Under the pieces are notes generated by a model that was given only the letters and a program-made list of their open reading frames with translations, was not told the origin of the DNA and ran no database searches. Made by a program: the position numbers and the translations under genes. A stretch of DNA of 41,300 nt from a virus, in IMG/VR virus record IMGVR_UViG_3300037474_000096. The stretch is one strand, 5' to 3'. Shown here piece by piece: positions 2,103 to 38,467 of the stretch. Each line of letters opens with the position of its first letter. Positions within the stretch are counted from its first letter, which is position 1.

Positions 2103-2135
2103 AGCCTACCCCAACAATCGTCAGGATGTCAACGG
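2103..2135 (-). promoter_or_regulatory. Sigma70-like promoter carrying the conserved box, reading toward the tRNA-like gene and the 1749 gene
   Basis: Minus strand reads cgTTGACAtcctgacgattgttggggTAGGCT (-35, 18 nt, -10). The box ATCGTCAGGATGTCAACGG lies at 2117-2135. Confidence 0.55.
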
Positions 2136-2549
2136 CTAGTTGGGGCGGGGGCCGAAGTGCTCCGTCACCGCTGAGGTGATCGAGTTCTCCGAGCAGTAGA
2201 ACAGCGGGAAGTTGACGTTCAGGCCGCTGTTCACCTCGATGTCCTCGACACCAAGCAGGTCCATCGCCACCTGATCGATCGAGCCGACGACCGCCCCGTC
2301 CGCGTTGATCGCGGTGTCGTGCTCAAGATCCATGCTCATGCCGGACAGCGCCACGGTCCAGCCGGCGAAGCACGCCGTCGTGCCGCACTCGTCCTCCAGA
2401 TCGGCCAGGGTGACTTTACTCTCCGCGCCGTCCAGGTAGTCCGCGTCCGGGTCGTACACCCACATGCCCATGTTGAACGCGGCACGGTGCTGCTCGATCG
2501 CGTCGATCACCCGCCACGCCAGATCCCCGTTACGGTCCTCGATCCCCAT
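2136..2549 (-). CDS. Hypothetical protein, member 1 of a 4-copy paralog family (CGTTACFAGW motif, C-terminal FGPRP)
   Basis: 137 aa, with the ATG sharing 1 nt with the upstream stop. Motifs are DECGTTACFAGW and ...EHFGPRPN-stop, shared with 3577..4212, 37057..37422 and 37724..38095. Confidence 0.7.
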   Translation of the reverse strand: MGIEDRNGDLAWRVIDAIEQHRAAFNMGMWVYDPDADYLDGAESKVTLADLEDECGTTACFAGWTVALSGMSMDLEHDTAINADGAVVGSIDQVAMDLLGVEDIEVNSGLNVNFPLFYCSENSITSAVTEHFGPRPN

Positions 2550-3520
2550 CAGATCCCCATCTCCAGTTCGTTGGTGGCATCCGGCCAGATGGCCTCACGG
2601 TGGGCGGCGACGGACTTGCCCTCGCTGCGTGCGTCGCAGACAGCGCGCGCCAGCTCCGCGTGCGCCAGCCCGACCCGCAGGTTGCAGCGGGACAGCTCCG
2701 GCGCGCCCCCATCCGCCGGCATGCGCATGATCACGCCCCAGTCCTGCGAGACGTGGAACTTCGGGCCGGGCACGTACGTGTCGCAGGCCAGCATGTACTC
2801 AGCGGTGGCATAGACGGCCAACTGAATGCGCGCCTCCAGCCAGCTCCAGAACGCGCGTTTCTTCGTCTTCAGGTCCGCCATCAGCAGGGTTCCCTTCCTG
2901 ATGATGCCGCCCTCCGACGCGCTGAACGGGATGTCGCGGGTGGTGATCAGGACGTCATCGAAGCGGCCGGCGGCGCGCAGGTGTACGTTGCGCACGGTGC
3001 GCTCCTGTAGCCCGGGCACCCGCGCCAGACCCTTGCGCTCCAGCAACTCATTGAGCGCCTGGATCTGCGCGTTGATCTGAGGCGTGCCGAACAGCGAGGA
3101 CTCGTCACGCCCCACCGCCGCTTCCCACACGTCGTGTCGGTTCGTGCCGGCCTGCGCCGCCGCGTTCCCGCCGGCGGTCTGCTTCGCCTCTTTGTGGATC
3201 AGCTCCAGCTCCGCCGCCAGATCCTTGTAGGTGTGGCGCTCGTTGAAGTCCGCACCCTCGGCCAGCGCCTTGCGAGTGGCGAACGACAGGCGCTCCACCA
3301 GGTCGGGGCGCAGGGCCAGCCCGATCTGCGAACGCTCGCGATCCCAGATCCCGAGTTGCCTGCTCTCCACGATCGCGCCCGCCAGGTTGGTGGCGGACTG
3401 GACACCACGCGGCACCCAGTCCCCACCGGACTTCGGGCCGGACTCGCCCGGAAGCAGGGGCATCTTGTAGCGGCCGAGGTGGTCGATACGCACGCCCATC
3501 GGGGCGTTTGCCATCGACAC
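2549..3520 (-). CDS. Putative PD-(D/E)xK family exonuclease (YqaJ/RecE/RecB-like)
   Basis: ORF 2549..3853 trimmed to the GTG at 3520 (GAGGAG 9 nt upstream) or the ATG at 3514. Candidate motifs are GRFDDVLI and LMADLKTKK. The family call is from motif memory only. Confidence 0.55.
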   Translation of the reverse strand: MSMANAPMGVRIDHLGRYKMPLLPGESGPKSGGDWVPRGVQSATNLAGAIVESRQLGIWDRERSQIGLALRPDLVERLSFATRKALAEGADFNERHTYKDLAAELELIHKEAKQTAGGNAAAQAGTNRHDVWEAAVGRDESSLFGTPQINAQIQALNELLERKGLARVPGLQERTVRNVHLRAAGRFDDVLITTRDIPFSASEGGIIRKGTLLMADLKTKKRAFWSWLEARIQLAVYATAEYMLACDTYVPGPKFHVSQDWGVIMRMPADGGAPELSRCNLRVGLAHAELARAVCDARSEGKSVAAHREAIWPDATNELEMGI

Positions 3521-3576
3521 TCTAGCCTGCTCCTCGGACGGATCGTCGCCGGCGTCGCTGCGGAAGAACAGACTAC

Positions 3577-4212
3577 TCACGCGACGTACTCCGGGGTCTC
3601 GCGCGGACCGTAGATCGTGGTGACCAGCCAGCCCAGATCCGCCCGGGTGTTGCTGGCCGCGAACAGCTCGCCGGCCAGGAACTCCGACACGTCCAGCAAC
3701 TCCCTCGCACGCTCCGACACGTAGCGCGGACCAGCCGGCGTGTCCACCATCAGGCCACGGCCGCTCTCCGGGATGTCCCCGGAGAGCAGGCTCGCCCATC
3801 CCGCGAAGCAGGCCACCGTGCCGCAGTTGTCCAGCCAGACACCCTGCTCCCACGACTGCGGGTCCGCGTCGATGTGATCGAGCACCTGGTACGCCAGGGT
3901 CTTGGCGGACGGGTGGGGGTTCGCGTTCCTGGCCGTGCGCTCCACCAGCTCACGCGCGGACTGCATATCGTACGCGTCGCACTCGGCCCACTCAGTGGTC
4001 CGGAAGTAGCCGTAGCCCAGCTCCCAGTTGAGCACCTCGACACCCAGCGCGGTCAGTCGACCGTCCTCGTGCAGGACCCCGCGCCGGCGCAGCGCGGCCA
4101 GCGTGCGCTCGCCACCCTCCAGCACGTTGAAGCATCCGTAGTAACTGCCACGGATCGCGTCCAGCATGGGCTCGCTGAGTGTTTTGTGGAGTTTCTTGAT
4201 CTCGTCTCGCAT
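3577..4212 (-). CDS. Two-domain hypothetical protein: N-terminal LRRRG-type small module fused to the CGT..CFAGW paralog domain
   Basis: The start is ambiguous among 4212, 4221 and 4236. 4212 was chosen because AAGGGAGGGG lies upstream. The C-terminal half reads LAYQVLDHIDADPQSWEQGVWLDNCGTVACFAGW...IYGPRETP. Confidence 0.65.
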   Translation of the reverse strand: MRDEIKKLHKTLSEPMLDAIRGSYYGCFNVLEGGERTLAALRRRGVLHEDGRLTALGVEVLNWELGYGYFRTTEWAECDAYDMQSARELVERTARNANPHPSAKTLAYQVLDHIDADPQSWEQGVWLDNCGTVACFAGWASLLSGDIPESGRGLMVDTPAGPRYVSERARELLDVSEFLAGELFAASNTRADLGWLVTTIYGPRETPEYVA

Positions 4213-4242
4213 GATCCCCATCCCCTCCCTTGTCATCGTTAA

Positions 4243-4470
4243 CTACTCGTTCAGTCTACGCACTGCCCGCGTCTTGTCAAGGTGGTCCGCGTAGGCCATC
4301 CCCGCACGATCGTGCTCATCGACGCGCGCGCACGAGCGCCACACGTTCGTGCCGGCGGCCAGCGTCTCCGGCGACATGTCGCACCTGACGTAGTGGTCGG
4401 TCAGCGCGCCGACGTTGTATGCCAGCTCTCGCCCGATCGACGCGCTCAGCTTCGCTTCCCAGTCCGTCAT
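4243..4470 (-). CDS. Hypothetical protein, 75 aa
   Basis: Complete ORF with an ATG at 4470 in an ATGA-type overlap with the helicase stop (4467). GC3 is high. Confidence 0.65.
   Translation of the reverse strand: MTDWEAKLSASIGRELAYNVGALTDHYVRCDMSPETLAAGTNVWRSCARVDEHDRAGMAYADHLDKTRAVRRLNE
4253..4280 (-). promoter_or_regulatory. Sigma70-like promoter embedded in the 3-prime end of the 4243..4470 gene
   Basis: Minus strand reads TTGACA (4280-4275), a 16-nt spacer, then TAGACT (4258-4253). It precedes the RBS and start of the 3577..4212 gene. Confidence 0.5.
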
Positions 4471-6242
4471 GCGTTCACCTCTGCCGTCATCATGGCCTTC
4501 ACCTGCGCCACCAGCGGATCGATCCGGTTCGCGGCAGCGCGTGCGTCGATCGCCTCGCTGAGTTCACCTTTCGACATTCGTAGAATGTCTGTCTCGCTGA
4601 TCCCCCACCCTCTGGCCGCCCCGACCTGCGCGGCGGTGGGCGCGCCGTTGCGCCACGTGGACTTGCGCCCGGTCAGGGTCTTACTGCCGTGACCGCCCAG
4701 CTCTGTCGCCACTTCCTCGCCCCAGGACAACGCCAGCTCCAGCGGCAGCGCGGTGTGCCCGGTGCCACGCTGGAATGCCTCGATGCGCTGGCCGGTACGC
4801 CGGTCCGTGTAGGCGGTGCGGCGCTGCGAGCAGGTCACCACGTCGTACGTGCCGGGATCCCCGGCCAGGGACTCGCACAGGAAGACGTAACCGGAGCCGG
4901 CGTTGATGAAGTAGTGACCGCCGGCGGTGCGTCCCCATACCTTGTCACGGCCGAGAGGATCGAACGCCCGGGTCTCCACCGGGCCGGCATAGGCGGGGGA
5001 CTCGAAGGTGATAGGCCCGTCGCCTAGCGCTTCCTCCAGCTCCTCATCGAAGATCAGAACCTCATCGTCCAGATCATCCTTCGGTGGCGCTTCGGGAGAG
5101 AGGTCCAGCAGGGCGCGCAGGTCATGCTTCGCGCCGGCCCCGGTGACGTCCAGGATCAGCGCCTTGCCGCGCTGCTCCGGCGGCAGCTCCAAGTTCGGGC
5201 GCAACACGCGCCCCACCATCTGCTGATACAACGGCGCGCTGCGGGTCGGGCGCGCGATCACCACGACATCAGCGGTGGGCTCATCGAATCCCTCGGTGAG
5301 CACCATGGCGTTGTGCATGACGTCGATGGCCTCGCTGTGGGTCAGCGGCAAGTGGAAGCGCTGAAGCAGCTCGCGCCGCAACCGCTTGTCCAGCCCGCCG
5401 TGCACCACGCCGGAACGGATCCCGATCTCATCGAACGCCCGCGCGCCGTGATACGAGGTCTCCACCAGCGGCCAGAACGCGATCCCACGCCGCACCGTTG
5501 ACCACGGGCCAGGGCAGTCGTCAGGGTCCTTGAAGCCAGCAAGGCGCGCGTATTCCTTCGCGATGATCTCCGGAGCGAACGTGCGCTCCAGCTCCTCAGC
5601 GACGTCGCCCTCCGCGTAGTCACCGCCGCGCACGCGGATGTTGCTGAAATCCAGATCCGGCACGATGATCTGCTCACCGGTGACGTCCAGCAGGTAGCCG
5701 TTGCGGATGCCGAACGTGATGTCCCGGACGAACGTGCAGTCCTGCCACACGCTGCTCAGCTTCGCCTTGTCGCTGCGTGCCAGCGTCGCGGTGACACCCA
5801 GCACGAAGACCGGGTGCTTGTCCTCGAAGTGCTCCAAGATCTTGCCGTAGGTGTTCGTCGCGGTGGCGTGGTGGCACTCGTCAATGACGATCAAACCGAC
5901 GAACCGCAACTGCTCCCGCCGCCTGGCCGTGGCCAAGGTCTGCCGCGAGCTGACCACGATCTCTGCCAGAACCTCGTTCTGGCCAGCCTTGACCACCCCG
6001 ACACTGCGGTCCGGAGCAATCTGCTTGATCCGGGTCACTGCCTGCTGGATCAGTTCGTCGGTGTGCGCCAGCACGAGCGCACGCTGGCCGGGGTGCTGGC
6101 TCAGCCACTGATCCACATAGCTGGCGAAGATCTGCGTCTTGCCCAGCCCCGTGGCCAGCACGATGGGCACCCGGGTGTCGCCGGCCAGGCGGCGGCGCTC
6201 GACATCCGCGATCGCCGCTACCTGATAGTCGCGCAGCTTCAT
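4467..6242 (-). CDS. SF2 DEAD/DEAH-box (DExH) DNA helicase
   Basis: ORF trimmed to the ATG at 6242 (ATGA overlap). Motifs are DYQ, LATGLGKT (Walker A), VIDECHHA (motif II), GVTATL and QQMVGRVLR. Confidence 0.85.
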   Translation of the reverse strand: MKLRDYQVAAIADVERRRLAGDTRVPIVLATGLGKTQIFASYVDQWLSQHPGQRALVLAHTDELIQQAVTRIKQIAPDRSVGVVKAGQNEVLAEIVVSSRQTLATARRREQLRFVGLIVIDECHHATATNTYGKILEHFEDKHPVFVLGVTATLARSDKAKLSSVWQDCTFVRDITFGIRNGYLLDVTGEQIIVPDLDFSNIRVRGGDYAEGDVAEELERTFAPEIIAKEYARLAGFKDPDDCPGPWSTVRRGIAFWPLVETSYHGARAFDEIGIRSGVVHGGLDKRLRRELLQRFHLPLTHSEAIDVMHNAMVLTEGFDEPTADVVVIARPTRSAPLYQQMVGRVLRPNLELPPEQRGKALILDVTGAGAKHDLRALLDLSPEAPPKDDLDDEVLIFDEELEEALGDGPITFESPAYAGPVETRAFDPLGRDKVWGRTAGGHYFINAGSGYVFLCESLAGDPGTYDVVTCSQRRTAYTDRRTGQRIEAFQRGTGHTALPLELALSWGEEVATELGGHGSKTLTGRKSTWRNGAPTAAQVGAARGWGISETDILRMSKGELSEAIDARAAANRIDPLVAQVKAMMTAEVNA

Positions 6243-6535
6243 CGCTTGCCACCCACGTACTTCGCGTAGACCTCGGTGGTGCCGCGCATGGTGGCACGGA
6301 AGGCTCCGGCCGGCTCGAAGCACTTCAGCTTCGCCCCATTGACGGCAGTCAAGATGCCGCACGCCTGCGCGTAGGTGCCCTCAAAGATGACGGCGTAGGT
6401 GCCGGCCTCGCCCTTGAGCTGACTGGCTACCGCGTCCCACTGTGACGACTTCGGACGCCGGACGAGAGGTTCAGCGTTCGCGCGCGGGGGCGGGGGGTTG
6501 GCCCATCGCAAGACCTGGCGCGGAGCGTACGGCAT
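6239..6535 (-). CDS. Hypothetical protein, 98 aa, paralog of 40917..41270
   Basis: ATG at 6535 with GGGAG 7 nt upstream. It shares LRW..PPPP...SQWDAVA...IFEG...AV NG...C..PAGAF...VYAKY(V/I)G with the 40917..41270 product. Confidence 0.7.
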   Translation of the reverse strand: MPYAPRQVLRWANPPPPRANAEPLVRRPKSSQWDAVASQLKGEAGTYAVIFEGTYAQACGILTAVNGAKLKCFEPAGAFRATMRGTTEVYAKYVGGKR

Positions 6536-6551
6536 GATCGATCTCCCATCA

Positions 6552-6571
6552 ATCGTCAAGTACTTAACGAG
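6552..6571. promoter_or_regulatory. Copy of the conserved ATCGT-N10-ACGA box, with no clear -10 (operator-like)
   Basis: ATCGTCAAGTACTTAACGAG lies in the 40-bp gap between the 6576 stop and the 6535 start. Confidence 0.4.
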
Positions 6572-6575
6572 TGTA

Positions 6576-7438: not shown

Positions 7439-7728
7439 GACCGAAACTCCTCTCGCACCTTGATCAGGGCGTGGACGGCATTCTGAAGCGCAACGAAGCT
7501 AAGCGCGCTGCCGTCCTTGCGCTGCTCGATCGTGTGCACGAGAGCGATGGCCTCGAAGATGACCTCCTGCGTGGCGCGCGACATCCGCGCCGCGCGCTGC
7601 CGCTGCTGCTCCCGCCGCTCATCGGCCAGGGTGCTGATGGCGGCGGCCAGCGCGCTGATGCTGCGCTCCGTCTCCTCGCCCGCATGCTTCAGCGCCGCAT
7701 CGATGACCGCCTGCTCGGCCGGGGTCAC
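7435..7728 (-). CDS. Hypothetical protein, 97 aa, tandem paralog set
   Basis: GTG at 7728 in a GTGA overlap. The N-terminus is VTPAEQAVIDAALKH. Confidence 0.6.
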   Translation of the reverse strand: MTPAEQAVIDAALKHAGEETERSISALAAAISTLADERREQQRQRAARMSRATQEVIFEAIALVHTIEQRKDGSALSFVALQNAVHALIKVREEFRS

Positions 7729-8060
7729 GGCTTGACCTCGCTCAGGGTCTGGAGGACCGCGACGGCAGCGCGCAGGCCGGACATTTCCTCCAGCGCAACG
7801 GCGCGGATGGTGCCGCGCTCGGCCTTGGTCAGGAAGTGCGCCAGCTCCGTGGCCGCTTCGAGCACCTGGCGCTGCGCGCCAGCGATCCGCTCCGCACGCT
7901 GCTCGGCCAGGCGGCGCTGCTCCGTCCGCAGTGCGGTGCAGGCCATGTGCAGGCGCGCTACGGCGTCGGCGCGGAGGTCGTTCACGTGCCACGCCAGGGC
8001 GGCATCGACGATGGCGCTCCGCAAGCTCTCCATGGAATCGTTGACATCTCGTTGAGTCAT
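7725..8060 (-). CDS. Hypothetical protein, 111 aa, first gene of the leftward arm
   Basis: ATG at 8060, apparently leaderless. It contains SAIVDAALAWH, and codons 2-8 are encoded by a copy of the conserved box. Confidence 0.6.
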   Translation of the reverse strand: MTQRDVNDSMESLRSAIVDAALAWHVNDLRADAVARLHMACTALRTEQRRLAEQRAERIAGAQRQVLEAATELAHFLTKAERGTIRAVALEEMSGLRAAVAVLQTLSEVKP

Positions 8061-8066
8061 GAGAAG

Positions 8067-8116
8067 AGCGTGTCCTATCGTCAGGGTGTTGTCAAGACAT
8101 GGCTGTGCTGTATCCT
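8067..8116. promoter_or_regulatory. Back-to-back divergent promoters with overlapping -35 hexamers
   Basis: Leftward: TTGACA (8095-8090), 17 nt, CACGCT (8072-8067), 6 nt, ATG at 8060. Rightward: TTGTCA (8089-8094), 16 nt, TATCCT (8111-8116). Box-like sequences lie at 8077-8097 and 8121-8135. Confidence 0.45.
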
Positions 8117-8182
8117 GGCGACATCTTAACGATTGCCTGCGCTGTGCAGGTAGGAGCATCTACGTGTCAGCGAGAGGACATC

Positions 8183-8515
8183 ATGACGGCCAAGAGTGTG
8201 CAGACAGGGATCGGGTTCCCGCGCGAGACGCTTCAGCGTATCGATCGCCTGCGGGCAGTGTTCGGCAAGTCGCGATCCTGGACGACGGACTACGCGCTGA
8301 CCCACGGCGGGCTGGACGGCGCGGAGCGGCTCAACGTGGGCGGGGTCGGGGTGTTCGCGGACCTGGCGCGCACGCTCGGGCTGACCTGGCGCGAGCTGGC
8401 CGACGCCTACGCGGGGGAGTTCTCCCGCTACACCTACCCGCCCTCGCTGGACGAGATCATGCGGGATCCGGCGATGCGCGCCGGCCTGCTGGAGCGGGCG
8501 GAGCGTACGTCGTGA
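8183..8515 (+). CDS. Possible ribbon-helix-helix (CopG/Arc-like) DNA-binding protein, first gene of the rightward arm
   Basis: ATG at 8183 with GAGAGGA upstream. The N-terminus QTGIGFPRETLQRIDRLRAVFGKSRSWTTDYAL fits a beta-strand plus two helices pattern. Confidence 0.45.
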   Translation: MTAKSVQTGIGFPRETLQRIDRLRAVFGKSRSWTTDYALTHGGLDGAERLNVGGVGVFADLARTLGLTWRELADAYAGEFSRYTYPPSLDEIMRDPAMRAGLLERAERTS

Positions 8516-8772: not shown

Positions 8773-8783
8773 CCTGCTCACCT

Positions 8784-11680: not shown

Positions 11681-11709
11681 TAGACAAGATGTCAACGATG
11701 GACTAGGGT
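11681..11709 (+). promoter_or_regulatory. Promoter for a leaderless 11716 gene, overlapping a partial conserved box
   Basis: TAGACA (11681-11686), 17 nt containing AGATGTCAACGAT, TAGGGT (11704-11709), 6 nt, then the ATG at 11716. Confidence 0.55.
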
Positions 11710-12985: not shown

Positions 12986-13045
12986 GCCCTATAATGGCTG
13001 GTCAGACGCGATACTTTAAAGCTGTATCAAGTGAGGCGAGACATC

Positions 13046-13519
13046 ATGATGCGTGGAGGGTTCGAAAAGCAGGGGCTTGAGGGCCGCAACGGAACGATCT
13101 GGCGGGACCATGTGATCGGCGGTTTAACGCTAGAGGCGGCGGGCGAAAAGCATGGTATCTCGCCTCAGCGCGTGCATCAGATCATCCGCGAGGTTCGCGC
13201 CAACATGCCGGAGTTTGTGCAGCGTGAGCTACTTCAGGACTCGCTGGAGCGCAACGCGGACGCGCGCCGCCGGCTGTTGGAGCTGGCCGAGATGAAGGGC
13301 GTGCCGGTGACCGCCGGCAAGGACGGCGCGGTGGTCATGGATCCGGAGTCCAACACGGTGGTGCGTGACTACGCGCTTCGGTTGAAGGCGCTGGAGCTGA
13401 TGATGAGGGCTGATGATCAACTCGCGAAGCGGATGGGTCTGGACTCCCCGACCAAGGTCGAAAGCGCGGCGACGGTCCGGTATGAGATCGGTGGTCTCAA
13501 CGACGCGGATCTGACGTAG
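13046..13519 (+). CDS. HTH DNA-binding protein (sigma-70 region-4-like). Possible small terminase subunit or late regulator
   Basis: ATG at 13046 with GAGG upstream. The HTH is LTLEAAGEKHGISPQRVHQIIREVR. It lies 1.2 kb upstream of TerL. Confidence 0.45.
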   Translation: MMRGGFEKQGLEGRNGTIWRDHVIGGLTLEAAGEKHGISPQRVHQIIREVRANMPEFVQRELLQDSLERNADARRRLLELAEMKGVPVTAGKDGAVVMDPESNTVVRDYALRLKALELMMRADDQLAKRMGLDSPTKVESAATVRYEIGGLNDADLT

Positions 13520-13833: not shown

Positions 13834-13877
13834 AGTCTACCCCTCTATCGTCAAGATCTCAACGATTGTGGTAGGGT
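13834..13877. promoter_or_regulatory. Overlapping divergent promoter pair sharing one palindromic box. Both starts are leaderless
   Basis: Minus strand: TTGAGA (13862-13857), 17 nt, TAGACT (13839-13834), 7 nt, ATG at 13826. Plus strand: TCGTCA (13848-13853), 18 nt, TAGGGT (13872-13877), 6 nt, ATG at 13884. The box ATCGTCAAGATCTCAACGAT lies at 13847-13866. Confidence 0.6.
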
Positions 13878-14716: not shown

Positions 14717-14736
14717 GCATATCAACGATGTATCCT
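14717..14736. promoter_or_regulatory. Possible divergent -10 elements for leaderless starts at 14709 (minus) and 14743 (plus)
   Basis: Minus strand: TATGCT (14722-14717), 6 nt, ATG at 14709 (with the 14710 boundary counted). Plus strand: TATCCT (14731-14736), 6 nt, ATG at 14743. Neither has a good -35. A partial box ATCAACGATG is present. Confidence 0.3.
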
Positions 14737-22063: not shown

Positions 22064-22092
22064 AGATTACCTGCCTATCGTCCAGATGTCAA
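22064..22092 (-). promoter_or_regulatory. Conserved-box promoter for the methyltransferase gene
   Basis: Minus strand: TTGACA (22092-22087), 17 nt, TAATCT (22069-22064), 6 nt, GTG at 22057. The box ATCGTCCAGATGTCAACGAG lies at 22077-22096. Confidence 0.65.
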
Positions 22093-22104
22093 CGAGTATT
22101 TGGA

Positions 22105-22414: not shown

Positions 22415-22443
22415 AGTCTACCTATCCATCGTTGGGATGTCAA
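22415..22443 (-). promoter_or_regulatory. Conserved-box promoter for the 22226..22408 gene
   Basis: Minus strand: TTGACA (22443-22438), 17 nt, TAGACT (22420-22415), 6 nt, ATG. The box ATCGTTGGGATGTCAACGAG lies at 22428-22447. Confidence 0.65.
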
Positions 22444-22533
22444 CGAGTATCTAGGGGTGAATCGTCGGTGCGTATGATCGACAGGACAAACGCCAGCAGT
22501 GACGCCCTGGCCGCCTAACAGAGGAGACATGTC

Positions 22534-24942: not shown

Positions 24943-24972
24943 AGTCTGCCTCATGCATCGTCCAGATGTCAA
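24943..24972 (-). promoter_or_regulatory. Conserved-box promoter in the 373-bp gap inside the structural module
   Basis: Minus strand: TTGACA (24972-24967), 18 nt, CAGACT (24948-24943). The box ATCGTCCAGATGTCAACAGG lies at 24957-24976. Confidence 0.5.
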
Positions 24973-25048
24973 CAGGTAACGGCGCATCGGATTCTGCCAG
25001 GTACGATCATGATCGACCCTGAGCACCCTGAAAGCGTGGTGAGCACCG

Positions 25049-31146: not shown

Positions 31147-31149
31147 GCA

Positions 31150-34551: not shown

Positions 34552-34554
34552 TCC

Positions 34555-35073
34555 ATGGCCATGGACGAGGTGGGCGCGGGTGACTTCGCGTTCGACGATA
34601 CGTTCAACTACATGATCCGGCGGGCGGTGAATCGCCCGATCTGCAAGCTGGCACTGGCCGCGAACCAGAACTTCACCTCAGGGTCGCAGCAGGCGGTGTC
34701 GTTCCTGGCCGGCTCGGAAGTGCTTGACGACCTGAACTGGCACTCCACGTCCTCGCTGACATCGCGGGTTGTGCCGACCTACGCCGGCCGGTACTGGGTG
34801 AACGGGATCCTGTCGTTCGCCTCGAACACCACCGGCGAGCGCCGGCTGATCATCACCAAGAACGGCGTCGGCAACGCGATCTACGACCGCCGCTTCGGTG
34901 TCTCGGCCACCACCAACGTCTCAGGGTGCGGCATCATCGAGTGCAACGGCACGACGGACTACATTGAGCTTCAGGGAGTCCAGGCCAGCGGCGGTATCCT
35001 GGCCGCTCAGGGCACCGGGGACTCCGCGTTCGGCACCATGCTTGAGGTGGTTTACATGGGTGACCTGCTGTGA
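34555..35073 (+). CDS. Minor tail protein or receptor-binding candidate, 172 aa
   Basis: The position is after the large tail protein. The sequence is beta-rich. Confidence 0.5.
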   Translation: MAMDEVGAGDFAFDDTFNYMIRRAVNRPICKLALAANQNFTSGSQQAVSFLAGSEVLDDLNWHSTSSLTSRVVPTYAGRYWVNGILSFASNTTGERRLIITKNGVGNAIYDRRFGVSATTNVSGCGIIECNGTTDYIELQGVQASGGILAAQGTGDSAFGTMLEVVYMGDLL

Positions 35074-35864
35074 GCGCGTGGGTGGTAGTTCCGTGCCTGC
35101 TCGCTCTGCGTGACGAGTACAACCTGGTCGCGCCCGGGCGCGACAAGGGCGCAGACGGAACGATCGGGGACTCGAACCACAAGAGCAGCTCAGACCACAC
35201 TCCGGACGAGGATTCGGACATCCTGCGTGACCACGACGCGGACGACAAGAACGAGGTGCACGCGCTCGACATCGACTCGTCCGGCCCGTGGCCCGGCGGG
35301 TGGGCATGGTTCAACGCCAGCGTGCTGGACGTCGTAGAGCGCCACCGGCTCGGTGTGGATGACCGACTGAAGTACGTCATCTGGAACGAGCGCATCGCGT
35401 CCATGTCGTGGAACTGGACGTGGCGGGAGTACTCCGGCCCGGACCCGCACACGAATCACGCGCACTTCAGCGCGCGGTACACCACCGCGCAGGAACGCGA
35501 CACATCAGATTGGGGAGTGGCGGACATGCCGCTGAACACGACGGACAAGAGCTGGCTGATCGGCCAGATCCGCGAGGGCGTGAACAAGGGCGTGGTGGAC
35601 GTGCTCTCGCGCGCGTCGCGCGCCGCGCAAGGCAAGTCCTCCGGCGACGACTTCACCGACAAGGGCGACGTGCAGATCTTGCAGATGCTGCGCCAGGCCG
35701 TCGGTGGGCCGCTCGATGAGCAGACCCTGGTGTCCGCGATCGTCGCGAAGCTCCCGACGTCCGGAGCGATCCCTTCCGGCGCGCCGATCAACGAGGACGC
35801 GCTACGCAATGCGGTGGAGGCCGGCGTGCGTGAGGTGCTGCGGACCGGGGTAAACGAGATCTGA
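35070..35864 (+). CDS. Putative endolysin or cell-wall hydrolase (metallopeptidase-like His/Asp motifs)
   Basis: GTG in a GTGA overlap. Motifs are GTIGDSNHKSSSDHTPD, VHALDID and PHTNHAHFS. It lies upstream of the small membrane proteins. Confidence 0.5.
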   Translation: MSAWVVVPCLLALRDEYNLVAPGRDKGADGTIGDSNHKSSSDHTPDEDSDILRDHDADDKNEVHALDIDSSGPWPGGWAWFNASVLDVVERHRLGVDDRLKYVIWNERIASMSWNWTWREYSGPDPHTNHAHFSARYTTAQERDTSDWGVADMPLNTTDKSWLIGQIREGVNKGVVDVLSRASRAAQGKSSGDDFTDKGDVQILQMLRQAVGGPLDEQTLVSAIVAKLPTSGAIPSGAPINEDALRNAVEAGVREVLRTGVNEI

Positions 35865-35931
35865 CCTGCGCGTTCTGTCCGCCCTTCCCGATACCATGGG
35901 GTACGAATTGATCTAGGGGAGGGCGGCCAGG

Positions 35932-36135
35932 ATGCCACGGTGGGCGCGGATCCTCGGATGGTGCGTCGGGCTGACCATGTGGGTGGTGATGATCATCTGG
36001 TCACTGATCCTCGGCCAGATCCCGAACGGGGTACTGATCGGGTTTCCGGCCGGCCTGTGGGCGGTGCTACGGCCGGGACGAACCCGTACGATTCCGGCGG
36101 AGCGCCAGAACGACGGAGAGGACAGCGCGTCATGA
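35932..36135 (+). CDS. Holin candidate, 67 aa, two TM helices
   Basis: GGGGAGGG RBS. Hydrophobic stretches are ILGWCVGLTMWVVMIIWSLIL and VLIGFPAGLWAVL. Confidence 0.55.
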   Translation: MPRWARILGWCVGLTMWVVMIIWSLILGQIPNGVLIGFPAGLWAVLRPGRTRTIPAERQNDGEDSAS

Positions 36136-36239
36136 CCTTGGATCCTGAGTGGATCGCCACGGCTCTGGCCGGCTCGATCGTGTGGGCGGTGGCCGGCACC
36201 CACCTGCGAGCCCTCATGCTGCGCCGGATGCGTCGATGA
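36132..36239 (+). CDS. Small membrane protein, 35 aa, one TM helix
   Basis: ATGA overlap. The hydrophobic stretch is WIATALAGSIVWAVAG. Confidence 0.45.
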   Translation: MTLDPEWIATALAGSIVWAVAGTHLRALMLRRMRR

Positions 36240-36541
36240 GTCCGCGCCTGCGATCCGCGCTGGTGGGGTTGGGTGTGCTGGCCGCGCTGGCGGGGGCGGC
36301 GGCCAGCGGCATCCGCCAGCAGGTCTACACGCAGTGCGTGGGCCGGCATCAGCGTGCGGACGCGGAACGTACCTCAGCGATCGCCAAGGCCACCGACGCG
36401 GAGCGCCGCGCCCAGCGCGCCCTGATCGCGAACACGGACCCGACGCACAACCGCACCCTGCGCGAGGCCATCCTGGCCGCCTACGACCACACGGACGCGG
36501 TGCGTGCCGCGAATCCACCACCGAACCAGGAGGCATGCTGA
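36236..36541 (+). CDS. Membrane-anchored protein, 101 aa (lysis accessory candidate)
   Basis: ATGA overlap. The N-terminal anchor is LVGLGVLAALAGAAASG. Confidence 0.5.
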   Translation: MSPRLRSALVGLGVLAALAGAAASGIRQQVYTQCVGRHQRADAERTSAIAKATDAERRAQRALIANTDPTHNRTLREAILAAYDHTDAVRAANPPPNQEAC

Positions 36542-36837
36542 TGATCAGCGCGAAGAGCCGGACAGAGATCAAGGTGCGCGCGGCCAGCCTGGCCGTGTTC
36601 GCGGTGACCACGGTGGGTGGCATCCTGCTGGAGACGTCCGTGACGGACTGGGCGAAGGATCTGCCGCCCTGGCTTCAGGTGCCGGCTGCCTCGCTGATCC
36701 TGGCCGGCGTGACGTGGCTGACTGGCCGACGCGCGAAGTCGCGACCGGACTACCTGTCGCCCTCCACCATCGAGGCGGCAGAAGTCTGGACACGCCAGCA
36801 CGCCCCCCGCATCCCGCGCGAGGGGCGTTTCAACTAG
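36541..36837 (+). CDS. Membrane protein, 98 aa, two TM helices (second holin-like candidate)
   Basis: AGGAGG lies 7 nt upstream. Hydrophobic stretches are AASLAVFAVTTVGGILL and AASLILAGVTWLTG. Confidence 0.55.
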   Translation: MISAKSRTEIKVRAASLAVFAVTTVGGILLETSVTDWAKDLPPWLQVPAASLILAGVTWLTGRRAKSRPDYLSPSTIEAAEVWTRQHAPRIPREGRFN

Positions 36838-36847
36838 CTGATCCGTC

Positions 36848-37060
36848 CTATCGCTTGCGTTCGTCGCCGTCCATCGCCCACATGACCGCCCAGGTGATCG
36901 CGGCGGTCAGTATCACGCTGGTCACTAGCGTGATACTGGCGAAGATGATCGCAACCGCCATCGATGATCCGTCGGCCAGGCTGGCCGCGAACAGCGCGCC
37001 AAAGAAGAGCAGCGTGGTGCAGCTCAACACCATGATCAGACGGCGATGACTCCTGATCAT
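36848..37060 (-). CDS. Small membrane protein, 70 aa, two TM helices, last gene of the leftward arm
   Basis: ATGA overlap with the upstream stop. It is convergent with the lysis genes, with a 10-bp gap. Confidence 0.6.
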   Translation of the reverse strand: MIRSHRRLIMVLSCTTLLFFGALFAASLADGSSMAVAIIFASITLVTSVILTAAITWAVMWAMDGDERKR

Positions 37061-37422
37061 GCCGTGCGCTCCGGCATCGAGTCCGGACGCGGGCCGAACA
37101 GCTCCTCCACGCAGAGCTGAAGATCCGCGCGGGTGTTCCCGCTGGCGAACAACCGGAACCCGTTGGTGAGGCCAAGCAGTTCGAGGGCGCGCACATCGGC
37201 GCGCTCACCGGACGCCAGCCAGTATGCCTCGTCCCCATCGAGTCCGATGAACCCCTGACGCTCGTAGTCCGGCATCTCGCCGGAGAGCAGGCACGTCCAG
37301 CCCGCGAAGCAGGCGGTGGTGCCGCAGTCCGTCATGGTGAAGAACCAGCCCTGATCCCACAGCTCAGGGTGGGCGTCGATCTGATCGAGCACCCGATAGG
37401 CCAGCTCCGCGTTCGGCTCCAT
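37057..37422 (-). CDS. Member 3 of the CGT..CFAGW paralog family
   Basis: MEPNAELAYRVLDQIDAHPELWDQ...DCGTTACFAGW...ELFGPRPD. Confidence 0.7.
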   Translation of the reverse strand: MEPNAELAYRVLDQIDAHPELWDQGWFFTMTDCGTTACFAGWTCLLSGEMPDYERQGFIGLDGDEAYWLASGERADVRALELLGLTNGFRLFASGNTRADLQLCVEELFGPRPDSMPERTA

Positions 37423-37727
37423 CACCACCTCACCGCCAGAGCGAGGGCGCTCGCGCCGCCGGCGACGAACACGGCCAGCATGGCAAGCGGGGGACTAACC
37501 TCGTTGGCCGCCGGGGCGAGCGCGAGGATCATCCCCACCGGAACGAGGATGATGACCTTCGCCAGCCACTGCGGCATGGTGTAGCGGCGCGGGGTGCGCG
37601 GCGCGCGCCGCCGGCCCTTGCCCGGGCGCGCGATCTGCGGGGCGGGCGCGGTGGCCGCCTCCATCCATCGCTGCCAGTTGACTTCTTCGGCGGAGAAGAT
37701 GTCCACGCCGGCATCCATCGTGGTCAC
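37422..37727 (-). CDS. Membrane protein, 101 aa, two C-terminal TM helices
   Basis: GTG at 37727 in a GTGA overlap. Hydrophobic stretches are WLAKVIILVPVGMILALAPAA and LAMLAVFVAGGASALALAV. Confidence 0.6.
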   Translation of the reverse strand: MTTMDAGVDIFSAEEVNWQRWMEAATAPAPQIARPGKGRRRAPRTPRRYTMPQWLAKVIILVPVGMILALAPAANEVSPPLAMLAVFVAGGASALALAVRW

Positions 37728-38095
37728 GGCCGCTCCCCGAAGATGTTCTCCACCAGGATCTGAAGGTCCGCGCGGCTGTTCCACATGTGGAACAGTGACG
37801 GACTGTCGTCCGTCTCGCTCAGCTCCGCGTAGTAGCTCAGCGCCGGCGCGATGTCCTGATCCGCACTGTCGTCGGAGATCCCGAGCAGCTCAAACGCGCG
37901 GATTTGAGTGTGAACCTTGCGATCGCCCACCCGGACGTAGCTCCCGTTCATCATCGCGTCCTCGCCATCGCTGAGCACCACCGCCCAGCCAGCGAAGCAT
38001 CCGCTAGTCCCGCACCACCAGCGTTTCTGGTCCCAGCGCTCCGGGTGGGCGTCGATCTGATCGAGCACCCGGTACGCCAACTCCGCGTTCGGCAT
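37724..38095 (-). CDS. Member 4 of the CGT..CFAGW paralog family
   Basis: ATG at 38095 with GGAGAAAAGGA upstream. The sequence reads MPNAELAYRVLDQIDAHPERWDQ...CGTSGCFAGW...NIFGERP-stop. Confidence 0.7.
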   Translation of the reverse strand: MPNAELAYRVLDQIDAHPERWDQKRWWCGTSGCFAGWAVVLSDGEDAMMNGSYVRVGDRKVHTQIRAFELLGISDDSADQDIAPALSYYAELSETDDSPSLFHMWNSRADLQILVENIFGERP

Positions 38096-38179
38096 ATCCT
38101 TTTCTCCCATCTTCGAGGGTTTAGCCCAGTACGACCAGGGGCTGTTTATGTCCTCCTAGCCGTACCGGGGATGCGTTCT

Positions 38180-38208
38180 ACGCTACTCGTCTATCGTCGG
38201 GATGTCAA
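38180..38208 (-). promoter_or_regulatory. Conserved-box promoter embedded in the last codons of the upstream gene
   Basis: Minus strand: TTGACA (38208-38203), 17 nt, TAGCGT (38185-38180). The box ATCGTCGGGATGTCAACGAT at 38193-38212 encodes ...LIVDIPTIDE-stop. Confidence 0.6.
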
Positions 38209-38467
38209 CGATCAATACCGGCCCCATCGCATCCCCGTACTGATCGATGAACACGCACGCCCCTGGGATGTAAGACGCATCTGAGATGATCCGGATCGCA
38301 GCGTAGTCGTGACCCTGGTTCGAACCCTCGCTGGCGGGGATCGTGCGCTTCAGTAGCTCCGGAACGCCTGCTCCGCAGCGCAGCTCCACGGCGCGACGTC
38401 GCCCCAGACTGGCACCGAACTTCTCGATCGTGGAGATCAGGTTCTCGTACGGAGACTGCTCGCTCAC
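38183..38467 (-). CDS. Hypothetical protein, 94 aa
   Basis: GTG at 38467 in a GTGA overlap with the lipoprotein stop. Confidence 0.6.
   Translation of the reverse strand: MSEQSPYENLISTIEKFGASLGRRRAVELRCGAGVPELLKRTIPASEGSNQGHDYAAIRIISDASYIPGACVFIDQYGDAMGPVLIVDIPTIDE

What the first reader, a model, noticed from the sequence alone, without database searches (positions are those of the whole stretch)
2103..38212. Genome-wide family of a 20-bp ATCGT-N10-ACGA box fused to TTGACA promoters
Near-identical boxes occur at 2117-2135, 6552-6571, 13847-13866, 22077-22096, 22428-22447, 24957-24976 and 38193-38212, with consensus ATCGTCnnGATGTCAACGA. Partial or variant copies lie at 8037-8056, 8077-8097, 8121-8135, 11684-11699, 14721-14730 and 40025-40058. 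On the opposite strand the box contains a perfect -35 TTGACA. In six cases a TAnnnT hexamer follows after 17-18 nt (TAGGCT, TAGACT twice, TAATCT, TAGCGT, and cAGACT). The conservation extends well beyond the -35/-10 hexamers and the arms are palindromic (ATCGT/ACGAT). That pattern suggests a dimeric phage regulator that co-controls all these units. Candidates are the RHH-like protein at 8183 or the HTH protein at 13046. Every well-formed copy fires on the minus strand.
Basis: partly seen in the sequence, partly recalled or inferred. Interest (0 to 1): 0.7.

Follow-up and report, generated by a model that had tools for sequence, protein, structure and literature searches.

The report
Phage promoters carrying a shared operator
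An uncultured high-GC phage reuses one 20-base promoter-plus-palindrome cassette in front of nearly all its leftward genes. Relatives keep the cassette's layout but swap both palindrome arms together, which points to a phage repressor (probably a small ribbon-helix-helix protein) that switches these genes off as a group: a new example of a known strategy.

Summary
Six near-identical boxes and one degenerate box lie at the stated coordinates (8 pattern hits against 0.09 expected), all with TTGACA on the minus strand. Six are followed after 17-18 nt by a TAnnnT-like hexamer. Three sit exactly 6-7 nt upstream of the first start codon of an ORF, so they are housekeeping-sigma promoters for leaderless mRNAs.

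The window is a complete, circularly assembled genome of about 41.2 kb. It belongs to an uncultured actinobacterial siphophage with no close cultured relative.

The key new evidence is comparative. Related phages keep the architecture (6-nt arm, 8 nt containing GACA, inverted 6-nt arm, at a fixed register on the -35) but change both arms together: ATCGTT/GACGAT here; CCAGTT/AACTGG, TCAGTT/AACTGA, CCTGTT/AACAGG and CTAGTT/GACTAG elsewhere. That indicates a symmetric, phage-specific DNA-binding protein, that is, an operator overlapping the -35 and spacer.

The best candidate binder is the product of 8183-8515. It is the first rightward gene, it sits next to three box variants, and it belongs to one family with CopG-like positional orthologues whose N-terminal strand type tracks the arm type. 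The HTH protein at 13031 is disfavoured: its recognition helix does not vary and it looks like a small terminase.

No binding or transcript data exist. This is a new variant of a known kind of phage regulon.

The parts
2103..2136 (-). Promoter-operator P2117. Box 2117-2136 (GCCGTTGACATCCTGACGAT), -35 at 2127-2132, 18-nt spacer, -10 TAGGCT at 2103-2108. It faces a tRNA-Thr-like gene (1938-2010) and then ORF 1069-1836.
   Evidence: tRNA
6552..6571 (-). Box with intact arms (CTCGTT...GACGAT) but degenerate hexamers (TTAAGT, no -10). It lies between co-directional genes upstream of the helicase operon. It is probably an operator or roadblock only, or a very weak promoter.
   Evidence: 100% conserved in L018, L025 and L026
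8036..8135 (.). Divergent switch region with three box variants. (1) Half box ATCGTTGACATC at 8037-8048 (+), inside the 5' end of gene 7725-8060. (2) Leftward promoter with -35 at 8090-8095, GACGAT at 8077-8082, -10 CACGCT at 8067-8072, then 6 nt, then ATG at 8060. (3) Rightward promoter TTGTCA 8089-8094, 16 nt, TATCCT 8111-8116, with a variant box at 8114-8133 over its -10/+1.
   Evidence: 1/100 mismatches here against 24/400 in the flanks in 95%-identical relatives
8183..8515 (+). First rightward gene (110 aa). It is an RHH-like candidate operator-binding protein: N-terminal VQTGIGF, then helix 14-27, a GKSRS loop, then helix 31-40.
   Evidence: negative results
7725..8060 (-). First leftward gene (111 aa, helical, no homologues in relatives). 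It is leaderless from the variant promoter at 8067-8095.
11681..11709 (+). Rightward leaderless promoter TAGACA-17-TAGGGT-6-ATG(11716). The half box GATGTCAACGAT (11688-11699) lies in its spacer.
13834..13877 (.). Most symmetric box, 13847-13866 (ATCGTTGAGATCTTGACGAT), shared by two divergent leaderless promoters. Leftward: -10 TAGACT at 13834-13839, ATG at 13826. Rightward: TGgTAGGGT with -10 at 13872-13877, ATG at 13884.
   Evidence: box kept in L018/L026 although a 121-aa gene is inserted downstream
14722..14736 (+). Half-site TCAACGAT (14722-14729) next to TATCCT (14731-14736), then 6 nt, then an in-frame ATG at 14743. This is a possible leaderless start of the large terminase gene. The annotated start is 14728.
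   Evidence: uncertain
22064..22096 (-). P22077: box 22077-22096, -35 at 22087-22092, -10 TAATCT at 22064-22069, then 6 nt, then GTG at 22057. It drives the leaderless DNA-methyltransferase-like gene 21329-22057.
22415..22447 (-). P22428: box 22428-22447, -35 at 22438-22443, -10 TAGACT at 22415-22420, then 6 nt, then ATG at 22408. It drives a 60-aa leaderless ORF (22226-22408). An extra half-site lies at 22461-22466.
24943..24976 (-). P24957: box 24957-24976, -35 at 24967-24972, 18-nt spacer, CAGACT at 24943-24948. It drives a Cys-rich ORF of about 46 aa (GTG at 24856, running to about 24716) set between tail genes. Extra half-sites lie at 24918 and 24887 in the leader.
38180..38212 (-). P38193: consensus box 38193-38212 (ATCGTTGACATCCCGACGAT), -35 at 38203-38208, -10 TAGCGT at 38180-38185. 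The leader carries an AGGAGG. It drives the operon 37724-38110 / 37422-37784 / 37057-37428.
   Evidence: identical in L009
40026..40060 (-). Variant site: TTGACG (40051-40056), 18 nt, TATCGT (40027-40032). It carries three ATCGTY half-sites (40026, 40039, 40049) in a non-canonical arrangement, upstream of 39107-39940.
4253..4280 (-). Promoter-like TTGACA-16-TAGACT without arms, inside gene 4243-4470. The half-site AACGAT overlaps the ATG (4236) of the next gene. Whether it belongs to the family is uncertain.
13031..13519 (+). It is disfavoured as the arm reader and is probably the small terminase.

Best explanation
**What the boxes are.** The boxes are the cores of a family of host housekeeping-sigma (SigA/HrdB-type) promoters in a probably lytic actinobacterial siphophage of about 41.2 kb. 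Each promoter has TTGACA, a 17-18 nt spacer, and (G)TAnnnT. Several start leaderless mRNAs.

**The operator.** A 20-bp operator is welded onto each promoter at a fixed register, about -39 to -20. Its arms are 5-6 bp and inverted: (A/C)TCGTT, then 8 bp, then (G/A)ACGAT. The left arm shares its TT with the -35 hexamer.

**The binder and its effect.** A phage-encoded symmetric DNA-binding protein binds these sites and lone ATCGTY half-sites at the rightward promoters. It is most likely the RHH-like product of 8183-8515, acting as a dimer or a dimer of dimers. Binding would occlude the -35 and spacer and so repress, as one regulon:
- the leftward replication and recombination genes;
- the methyltransferase;
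- a tRNA-like gene;
- several small accessory genes;
- its own operon.

This would be an Arc/Cro-like shut-off of early transcription. At sites between co-directional genes (6552, 22077) it could also act as a roadblock.

**Shown versus inferred.**
- Shown: the sequence family, the promoter geometry, the coincidence with start codons, and the lineage-specific covariation of the arms.
- Inferred: transcription from these sites, protein binding, the binder's identity, and the direction (repression) and timing of control.
For: **Enrichment**
- 8 pattern hits against 0.09 expected.
- ATCGTY half-sites are enriched in non-coding DNA, p = 1e-7.

**Promoter reading**
- -35, 17-18 nt, -10 geometry.
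- The first start codon of ORFs 13593-13826, 22226-22408 and 21329-22057 lies 6-7 nt after the -10. The same holds for the + strand ORFs at 11716 and 13884.

**Operator reading**
- Relatives with 26-50% PrimPol identity keep the 6+8+6 layout but carry other symmetric arms. L156: CCAGTT..AACTGG, 7 copies. L155 and L095: TCAGTT..AACTGA. L090: CCTGTT..AACAGG. L083: CTAGTT..GACTAG.
- Treating the arms as pairs in 31 curated boxes: 87% paired against 75% in shuffles (0/500), covariation 0.379 against 0.153 (0/500), slid controls 18-48%.
- With no symmetry filter, across 73 promoter-like sites in 18 genomes: 20 have 4/4 complementary outer arm bases; own-site mean 2.27 against 1.51 for cross-genome pairs; 0/5000 permutations reach the observed value.
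- Box 6552 keeps its arms without usable hexamers.
- The switch region is more conserved than its coding flanks: 1/100 against 24/400 mismatches.

**Binder**
- The 8183 gene abuts three box variants, one of them over its own -10/+1.
- Its family (A8) is homologous to the TQLLV-type first-rightward-gene family (A7): hhalign 95.6%, E = 1.2e-8.
- The four-sequence core of that TQLLV family (alignment A4) has weak CopG hits in the PDB: E = 0.024, 0.23, 0.96.
- All seven TQLL-type genomes have CAGTT arms. Genomes with other strand types have other boxes.
- L160 sits in the same helicase clade (65-78% identity) but lacks that protein and lacks CAGTT boxes.
- The AF2 model (pLDDT 85) has a free N-terminus followed by helices 14-27 and 31-40, joined by a GKSRS loop.
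Against: - There are no transcript or binding data.
- The 8183 protein has no Pfam, PHROG, NCBIfam or PDB sequence hit, and Foldseek finds nothing (best E = 0.66).
- Its predicted DNA-facing strand positions are Q, G, G, which is poor for base reading.
- Its only close homologue outside the 95% clade is P0002 on the 1.7-kb contig L023. The upstream region there carries repeated CTTGTCA(A/G)G rather than ATCGT boxes.
- The arm centres are 14 bp apart, an unusual spacing for known RHH tetramers (my knowledge).
- The strand-type to arm-type correlation rests on few independent lineages and partly follows phylogeny: the TQLLV genomes form one helicase clade.
- Some relatives (L241, L162, L085, L244) have conserved but non-symmetric boxes.
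- No lysogeny genes were found, so the biological role (early shut-off or immunity) is open.
Confidence: 0.55

Rival explanations
1. The palindrome is a real operator, but the protein that reads it is not the 8183 product. The binder could be another small phage protein, the sigma-region-4-like protein at 13031-13519 (which could recognise the invariant GTTGAC core), or a host factor.
For: - The RHH fold of the 8183 protein is unconfirmed.
- The homologue's contig L023 shows other repeats.
- The 13031 protein carries a sigma-region-4-type domain (SigF region 4, E = 8e-4). It is conserved in most relatives.
- Sigma region 4 is the domain that reads -35 elements (established knowledge).
Against: - The recognition helix of the 13031 family is nearly invariant (QRVSQIL) across genomes with ATCG, CCAG, TCAG and CCTn arms. 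It therefore cannot explain arm specificity.
- L156 has the clearest boxes, but no homologue of the 13031 protein was detected in its 18.5-kb locus.
- The gene sits just before the large terminase in L076. Its best, non-significant, fold matches are small terminases.
- A host factor would not explain phage-specific arms among phages that appear to share host types.
Confidence: 0.2
2. These are only strong promoters. The extra conservation reflects recent duplication of one promoter cassette or selection for promoter strength (extended -35 or spacer effects), with no dedicated regulator.
For: - All strong copies are promoter-shaped.
- GTTGACAT is shared by all the phage lineages.
- Some relatives have conserved but non-symmetric flanks.
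Against: - Conservation comes in blocks (arms, -35, -10), with free positions in between. It is not continuous, as recent duplicates would be.
- The arms are symmetric and change on both sides together between lineages.
- Box 6552 keeps the arms but not the hexamers.
- Lone half-sites accumulate at other promoters and in leaders.
Confidence: 0.12
3. The inverted repeat acts as a nucleic-acid hairpin. Possible roles are a terminator or insulator for read-through transcripts, an RNA processing site, or a cruciform.
For: - Compensatory changes are equally expected for a hairpin.
- L156 boxes fold at -11 to -13 kcal/mol (z about -4 to -5) and are flanked by A and T runs.
Against: - Window boxes fold weakly, at -2.2 to -7.5 kcal/mol. 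Five of six are within 2 sd of shuffles.
- There is no T-tract after them.
- The element lies upstream of its own start site.
- The innermost arm position is free (A, C, G or T opposite T) in different lineages.
- The scan found no terminator-like site at any box.
Confidence: 0.06
4. The boxes are mainly recombination linker sequences at module boundaries that promote exchange of gene cassettes. Any regulatory role would be secondary.
For: - In L018/L026 a 121-aa gene is inserted immediately downstream of the conserved 13847 box.
- Box-driven single genes interrupt the structural operon.
Against: - Only one such boundary was seen.
- Linker function does not explain the fixed register with the -35, the symmetric covariation, or the half-site clusters in the switch region.
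Confidence: 0.05

Closest known systems
Cluster A mycobacteriophage (L5, Bxb1) repressor with operator and stoperator sites
   Same: One phage protein, with many copies of one short site spread over the genome, at promoters and between genes. Site orientation follows the direction of transcription. Specificities diverge between related phages (PMC9283540, PMC6550527).
   Different: - L5 sites are 13-bp asymmetric sequences bound by a monomeric HTH-plus-stoperator-domain repressor, with more than 20 per genome, mostly not at promoters.
- Here the site is a 20-bp inverted repeat fused to the -35, with about 7 full copies, nearly all at promoters.
- The L5 motif is not enriched in the window.
- No lysogeny module was found.
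Cluster O mycobacteriophage 17-bp palindrome TGTTCGGNNNCCGAACA and its SigA-like, partly leaderless promoters
   Same: An actinobacteriophage with strongly predicted SigA promoters, leaderless first genes at divergent promoters, a leftward gene inside the structural operon, and a many-copy short dyad-symmetric repeat of unknown binder (PMC4351075).
   Different: - In Cluster O the palindrome (7+3+7, more than 30 copies) is separate from the promoters.
- Here the palindrome (6+8+6) overlaps the -35 at a fixed register.
- The Cluster O motif is absent from the window.
Ribbon-helix-helix phage and plasmid repressors (P22 Arc and Mnt, plasmid CopG)
   Same: Small proteins that insert an N-terminal beta-strand pair into the major groove, bind inverted or tandem half-sites cooperatively, overlap promoter elements, and autoregulate (established knowledge). 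The candidate at 8183 has the strand-helix-GxSRS-helix pattern. Its homologous family hits CopG structures weakly.
   Different: - Arc, Mnt and CopG each control one or two promoters. Here there are about 10 sites genome-wide.
- The arm centres are 14 bp apart rather than about 11 (my knowledge).
- The candidate has a helical C-terminal extension of about 70 residues.
- Membership of the RHH superfamily is not confirmed by profile or fold searches.
Streptomyces phage phiC31 repressor c and its conserved inverted repeats (CIRs)
   Same: From memory: a phage of high-GC actinomycetes with many copies of a conserved inverted repeat near early promoters across the genome, bound by the phage repressor.
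   Different: Its repressor is an HTH protein made in several isoforms. Its early promoters are not of the TTGACA/TAnnnT type. No sequence similarity was detected between the first 20 kb of the window and any phage record.
Lambda Cro-type early shut-off
   Same: The first gene of the rightward early operon encodes a small dimeric repressor that turns down the divergent early promoters, including its own (established knowledge). The position and the proposed logic are the same.
   Different: Cro acts at one operator cluster. Here the same operator is copied onto many dispersed promoters. No CI-like partner or integrase was found.

Membership tests
Sigma-70 / SigA housekeeping promoter | -35 hexamer close to TTGACA | tested here: met
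   Perfect in 5 of 7 boxes. Box 13847 has TTGAGA and box 6552 has TTAAGT.
Sigma-70 / SigA housekeeping promoter | 16-19 nt spacer, then a -10 of type TAnnnT | tested here: met
   17 nt in four boxes and 18 nt in two. The hexamers are TAGGCT, TAGACT (twice), TAATCT, TAGCGT and CAGACT. Box 6552 fails.
Sigma-70 / SigA housekeeping promoter | Transcription starts 6-8 nt downstream of the -10 | not testable with these tools
   Indirect support only. The first start codon of five ORFs (13826, 22408, 22057, 11716, 13884) lies 6-7 nt after the -10, as expected for leaderless mRNAs.
Protein-bound symmetric operator | Inverted-repeat arms conserved within a genome | tested here: met
   The right arm ACGAT is present in 7 of 7 boxes. 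TCGT...ACGA is present in 5 of 7.
Protein-bound symmetric operator | Both arms change together between related genomes | tested here: met
   Five different symmetric arm pairs were seen; 0/500 shuffles reach the observed value; 0/5000 permutations reach it. The number of independent lineage events is small.
Protein-bound symmetric operator | Specific binding by a protein | not testable with these tools
   Needs EMSA, footprinting or ChIP.
Ribbon-helix-helix (CopG/Arc/MetJ) superfamily, for the 8183-8515 product | Significant profile match to an RHH family | tested here: not met
   No hit in Pfam, PHROGs or NCBIfam. No CopG hit for profiles A3 or A8 in the PDB.
Ribbon-helix-helix (CopG/Arc/MetJ) superfamily, for the 8183-8515 product | Homology to proteins that do match RHH families | tested here: inconclusive
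   hhalign of A8 against A7 gives 95.6% probability, E = 1.2e-8. A4, the four-sequence core of A7, hits CopG regulators only weakly: E = 0.024, 0.23, 0.96.
Ribbon-helix-helix (CopG/Arc/MetJ) superfamily, for the 8183-8515 product | N-terminal strand, helix A, G-x-S/T/N turn, helix B | tested here: inconclusive
   The AF2 monomer (pLDDT 85) has residues 1-9 at low confidence (pLDDT below 50) and no helix or strand before residue 14, helix 14-27, a GKSRS loop, and helix 31-40. The strand would form only in a dimer. Foldseek finds no RHH match.
Cluster A stoperator system | 13-bp asymmetric site GGTGGMTGTCAAG in more than 20 copies | tested here: not met
   4 hits at up to 2 mismatches against 2.2 expected. 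The site here is symmetric and 20 bp long.
Cluster A stoperator system | L5 gp71-like repressor (HTH plus stoperator domain) | not tested
   No direct search was made. None of the Pfam or PHROG scans of about 45 window proteins suggested one.
Cluster O 17-bp palindrome | TGTTCGGNNNCCGAACA in more than 30 copies | tested here: not met
   1 hit at 2 mismatches against 0.2 expected.
Small terminase subunit, for the 13031-13519 product | N-terminal HTH, a long oligomerisation helix, a gene just upstream of the large terminase, and a fold match | tested here: inconclusive
   - Sigma-region-4-type HTH.
- Long helix 61-87.
- The gene is directly upstream of the large terminase in L076.
- Top Foldseek hits are the G20c and P74-26 small terminases, but at E = 0.36 and from a model with pLDDT 66.

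The most novel reading that the evidence does not exclude
This uncultured actinophage family may carry a natural library of orthogonal repressor-operator pairs. In each pair a CopG-like protein would read, through its N-terminal strand, a 6+8+6 palindrome locked at one register onto the host -35 element. Strand residues and operator arms would have co-evolved (for example G-TQLLV with CCAGT, S/Q-TQLL with TCAGT, Q-FMVSV with CTAGT, QTGIGF with ATCGT). That would give a readable RHH recognition code and an immunity-like specificity system in phages that have no detectable lysogeny genes.
Probability: 0.3. Interest if true: 0.6.

Novelty: new variant of a known kind. Interest (0 to 1): 0.45.

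Why it matters
- If the model holds, one small phage protein controls about ten dispersed promoters through an operator fused to the -35. That is a compact way to time early genes, a methyltransferase and accessory 'moron'-like genes in a phage group with no cultured member.
- The family-wide swapping of arms gives a natural experiment on how RHH-type proteins change DNA specificity.
- It offers ready-made orthogonal, strong, leaderless promoter/repressor pairs for high-GC actinomycetes such as Streptomyces or Micromonospora.
- The boxes are practical markers for promoters and gene starts when annotating these metagenomic phages.

Tried and rejected
- **Close relatives.** Megablast of bases 1-20000 against cultured phages found nothing. 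The nearest cultured portal is Streptomyces phage Dagobah at 39%.
- **Exact-pattern scan of IMG/VR.** Apart from L009, a 96%-identical fragment of this phage, the 16 other hit loci have much lower G+C (0.46-0.60) and a single box each, 14 of them the same 19-mer; I took these as unrelated and probably coding (not checked).
- **PrimPol-based scans.** Scans of GTDB genomes and JGI metagenomes gave few close relatives. The useful relatives came from the look-up of encoding contigs.
- **Homologue search with the 8183 protein.** Only one non-trivial hit.
- **Fold of the 8183 protein.** AF2 followed by Foldseek gave no match.
- **The 13031 protein.** The homologue search returned no source names. 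Foldseek gave only non-significant small-terminase matches.
- **RHH-profile scans of IMG/VR.** They returned only contigs already held, or failed.
- **Rfam.** No family reached gathering threshold anywhere in the window.
- **Rejected ideas.**
  - Membership of the L5 stoperator or Cluster O repeat families.
  - An intrinsic terminator role for the window boxes.
  - The 111-aa leftward gene as a general binder, because it is not conserved in relatives.
- **Lysogeny genes.** No integrase or partition gene was found among about 45 proteins scanned, but not every small ORF was scanned.

Full report
**1. What the window is**

The window is 67% G+C. It encodes a large terminase, a portal, a ClpP-type protease, an HK97-type capsid protein, a PrimPol/AAA_25 replication protein and a ResIII/DEAD helicase.

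Its first 127 or so bases repeat at its end, and contig L009 runs across that junction. The window is therefore a complete, circularly assembled phage genome of about 41.2 kb.

Bases 1-20000 have no megablast match in cultured phages. The nearest cultured portal is Streptomyces phage Dagobah at 39% identity. Metagenomic contigs that are 95-100% identical exist: L009, L018 (the same contig as L024), L025 and L026.

Genes run leftward in 1-8060, rightward in 8183-21270, leftward in 21329-22408, rightward in 22534-37049 (with one small leftward ORF at about 24716-24856), and leftward in 37057-41270. No integrase or partition gene was found among about 45 proteins scanned.

**2.

A PWM built from six boxes scores those six at 34-37.5 bits, which is circular for them. 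The left-out box 6552 scores 18.7. Three partial copies score 15-20, against a best shuffle score of 15.3.

Read on the minus strand, all seven boxes align without gaps as (A/C)TCGTTGACATCnnGACGAT. After 7-8 more bases comes a TAnnnT-like hexamer, and the last of those bases is G in six of the seven.

- TTGACA is perfect in five boxes.
- The spacer is 17 nt in four boxes and 18 nt in two.
- Box 6552 has neither a good -35 nor a -10.
The left arm is a full ATCGT in only 2 of 7 boxes, while the right arm ACGAT is invariant.
- The half-site ATCGTY is over-represented: 68 against 41.8 +/- 6.7.
- 20 of the 68 copies lie in the 7.7% of the genome that is non-coding by my gene list (p = 1e-7). They include clusters at 8036-8135 and 40026-40054, and extra copies at 22461, 24887 and 24918.

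**3. They look like real promoters**

Three strong boxes place their -10 exactly 6-7 nt upstream of the first possible start codon of the downstream ORF: ATG 13826, ATG 22408 and GTG 22057. That is the arrangement of leaderless mRNAs, which are common in Actinobacteria (established knowledge; also described for Cluster O phages in PMC4351075).

The same geometry recurs at a variant leftward promoter (-35 at 8090-8095, ATG at 8060). It recurs at rightward promoters that carry only a half box close to the -10 (11716, 13884, and possibly 14743).

The units driven by boxes are non-structural:

| Promoter | Downstream genes |
|---|---|
| P2117 | tRNA-Thr-like gene (ARAGORN; Rfam 25.3 bits, below the 29-bit gathering score) |
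| 6552 | helicase/exonuclease arm |
| P22077 | DNA-methyltransferase-like gene |
| P22428 | 60-aa ORF |
| P24957 | Cys-rich ORF of about 46 aa between tail genes |
| P38193 | operon that includes two phrog_889 paralogues |

**4. The decisive comparative evidence**

Phages that share the helicase / divergent region / PrimPol synteny were fetched. Their PrimPol identity to the window ranges from 26% to 50% across the relatives tabulated below. They do not carry the ATCGT box. They carry the same architecture with other arms:

| Genome | Box |
|---|---|
| window | ATCGTT-GACATCnn-GACGAT |
| L156 | (AA)CCAGTT-GACAnnTG-AACTGG(TT), seven copies on both strands |
| L158, L122, L243 | CCAGTT...(C/G/T)ACTGG |
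| L155, L095 | TCAGTTGACATCTGAACTGA |
| L090 | CCTGTT...AACAGG |
| L083 | CTAGTT...GACTAG |

In each genome the boxes sit upstream of TAnnnT-N6-ATG. In every case the left arm shares its last two T's with TTGACA, and 8 bp separate the arms.

Counting the arms as 'pairs' in 31 curated boxes gives 87.1% complementary cells against 75.0% in shuffles (0/500). The covariation score is 0.379 against 0.153 (0/500). Controls with the partner slid by 1-3 columns give 18-48%. Those boxes were chosen for carrying their lineage's left arm, so I repeated the test with no symmetry filter on all 73 TTGACA-like/TAnnnT sites in 18 genomes:

- The outer four bases of the two arms are fully complementary in 20 sites, and at least 3 of 4 complementary in 34 sites.
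- The own-site mean is 2.27, against 1.51 for cross-genome pairings.
- 0 of 5000 permutations reach the observed value.

Sites within a genome are not independent, so the number of separate evolutionary switches is only about four or five. Even so, symmetric two-sided replacement of the arms at a fixed position is what a dimeric sequence-specific protein predicts.

Further support:

- Box 6552 keeps both arms although its hexamers have decayed.
- The 8036-8135 region has 1/100 mismatches against 24/400 in its coding flanks in the 95% relatives.
- The 20-bp 13847 box is kept in L018/L026, with one substitution at its outermost arm base (13866), although a 121-aa gene has been inserted just downstream.

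Not all relatives are symmetric. L241, L162, L085 and L244 have conserved but one-sided boxes. L079 places a different palindrome (CTAACAGGTACCTGTTAG) in the spacer.

**5. Who binds?**

The centre of the box is at about -29.5, so a bound protein would cover the -35 and spacer. This is a repressor position, not a class II activator position (inference from established promoter geometry).

*The 8183 candidate.* The densest cluster of variants is the divergent region 8036-8135, directly upstream of gene 8183-8515. One variant lies over that gene's own predicted -10/+1 (TTGTCA-16-TATCCT).

The positional orthologues of this gene in L155, L156, L158, L122, L242, L243 and L095 form a family (A7, and its four-sequence core A4) that starts with (G/S/Q)TQLL(V/I)xP. 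The A4 profile gives weak PDB hits that are almost only CopG-family RHH regulators: E = 0.024, 0.23 and 0.96.

The window protein, P0002 and the first rightward genes of L241, L162, L085 and L083 form a second alignment (A8). A8 is homologous to A7: hhalign probability 95.6%, E = 1.2e-8, with the N-terminal strands in register.

The window protein shows the pattern I know from RHH proteins: a short N-terminal strand region, helix A, a G-x-S-R-S turn, then helix B. The AF2 model (pLDDT 85) has residues 1-9 at low confidence (pLDDT below 50) and no secondary structure before residue 14, then helix 14-27 and helix 31-40, followed by five more helices.

Strand type and arm type go together:

- All seven TQLL genomes have CAGTT arms. 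G-TQLLV goes with CCAG in four of five genomes (L242 has GCAG), and S/Q-TQLL goes with TCAG.
- Each of the other strand types has its own box.
- L160 lies inside the TQLLV helicase clade (65-78% identity) but lacks that protein, lacks CAGTT boxes, and has other repeats.

Against this candidate:

- The window protein has no Pfam, PHROG, NCBIfam or PDB sequence hit and no Foldseek match.
- Its inferred DNA-facing positions are Q, G, G.
- The short contig of its closest homologue (L023) shows CTTGTCA(A/G)G repeats instead.
- The correlation partly follows phylogeny.

Its recognition helix is nearly identical in genomes with different arms. The gene lies just upstream of the large terminase in L076. 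Its best, non-significant, fold matches are small terminases. I therefore regard it as a probable small terminase and not the arm reader. A role at the invariant GTTGAC core cannot be excluded.

**6. Rivals**

- A pure promoter-duplication explanation fails on the block-wise conservation, the symmetric covariation and box 6552.
- A hairpin explanation is possible for L156, whose boxes fold at -11 to -13 kcal/mol. It is weak for the window: -2.2 to -7.5 kcal/mol, mostly within shuffle range, with no T-tract and no terminator call.
- A linker-for-recombination role is suggested by one insertion boundary only.

**7. Comparison with known systems**

The logic matches multi-site phage regulons:

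- Cluster A repressor/stoperators are asymmetric 13-mers read by a monomeric repressor (PMC9283540, PMC6550527).
- The Cluster O 17-bp palindrome occurs alongside SigA-like, leaderless promoters (PMC4351075).
- phiC31 CIRs (from memory).
- Arc/Mnt/CopG-type and Cro-type autoregulated early repression (established knowledge).

Neither the L5 nor the Cluster O motif is present above chance.

Three things differ here. The palindrome is fused to the -35 at a fixed register. A whole uncultured phage family conserves that layout while swapping the arms. The likely reader is an RHH-like protein rather than an HTH protein.

I therefore class this as a new variant of a known kind. It is of moderate interest, mainly as a natural specificity series and a source of orthogonal actinobacterial promoter/repressor parts.

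Noticed in passing
window 1-127 and 41174-41300: The first 127 or so bases are repeated at the end of the window (offset 4), and contig L009 spans the junction. The window is a circularly assembled complete genome, not a fragment.
   Followed up: yes
window 11186-11660: The non-coding stretch downstream of PrimPol is packed with at least 10 copies of TTCCGTGCA / TGCACGGAA in both orientations. It also has repeated TTTTCGCAGGTCA motifs, inverted repeats CGTGCATAGAnG...CTATGCACG (11222, 11375) and a polypurine run (11625-11675). It is probably the replication origin. Relatives have different iterons at the same place (L075 ATTGGCCACC, L076 ATCGTGGCCGAT, L155 ATGCGGAAAG, L156 GATGCGTCAC).
   Followed up: partly
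window 1938-2010 (-): A tRNA-Thr(CGU)-like gene called by ARAGORN. Rfam tRNA scores 25.3 bits, below the 29-bit gathering score, but the match is full length with a perfect T-arm. It lies about 85 nt downstream of promoter P2117.
   Followed up: partly
window 24716-24856 (-): An unannotated ORF of about 46 aa with five Cys, a GTG start and a GGGAAAGG ribosome-binding site. It is set antisense between tail-region genes and driven by box P24957.
   Followed up: partly
window 21329-22057 (-): A DNA-methyltransferase-like gene (phrog_363, E = 5e-21) sits leftward inside the rightward structural block. It is leaderless (GTG) from box P22077. Relatives carry PF00145 methylases at other positions.
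   Followed up: partly
window 3577-4236, 37057-37428, 37724-38110 (all -): Three paralogues of phrog_889/phrog_30739 (function unknown). The DNA of their 5' parts is 76-90% alike (3767-3897, 37351-37417, 38027-38093).
   Followed up: partly
window 13031-13519 (+): A 162-aa protein with a free-standing sigma-region-4-type domain (LxERxxxV...LSxQRVSQIL) plus a conserved PVTAGKDG...VRDY domain. It is conserved across the phage family. It is probably a small terminase, but the resemblance to the -35-reading domain is notable in a genome whose regulon is built on -35 elements.
   Followed up: partly
window 14728 / 14743: The large terminase ORF has two in-frame ATGs. The second lies 6 nt after a TATCCT hexamer, so the gene may start leaderless at 14743 rather than at the annotated 14728.
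   Followed up: no
L079 4097-8253: A more distant relative (PrimPol 30%) has at least 5 promoters of the form TTGACAtCTAACAGGTACCTGgTAGACT. Here a different palindrome lies in the spacer and overlaps the -10, an alternative way of fusing an operator to a promoter.
   Followed up: partly
L155, L156, L158, L122, L242, L243, L095, L160 against the window: Helicase identities define a tight clade (55-78%), while PrimPol identities are scrambled (25-60%). The replication module is therefore mosaic within this phage group.
   Followed up: partly
L025 1378-1587: A 100%-identical relative (over the shared parts) carries a DUF397 gene in a replaced left-end segment. A PrimPol homologue (P0030, 45% identity) is annotated in Micromonospora chersina. 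These are hints that the hosts are filamentous actinomycetes.
   Followed up: no
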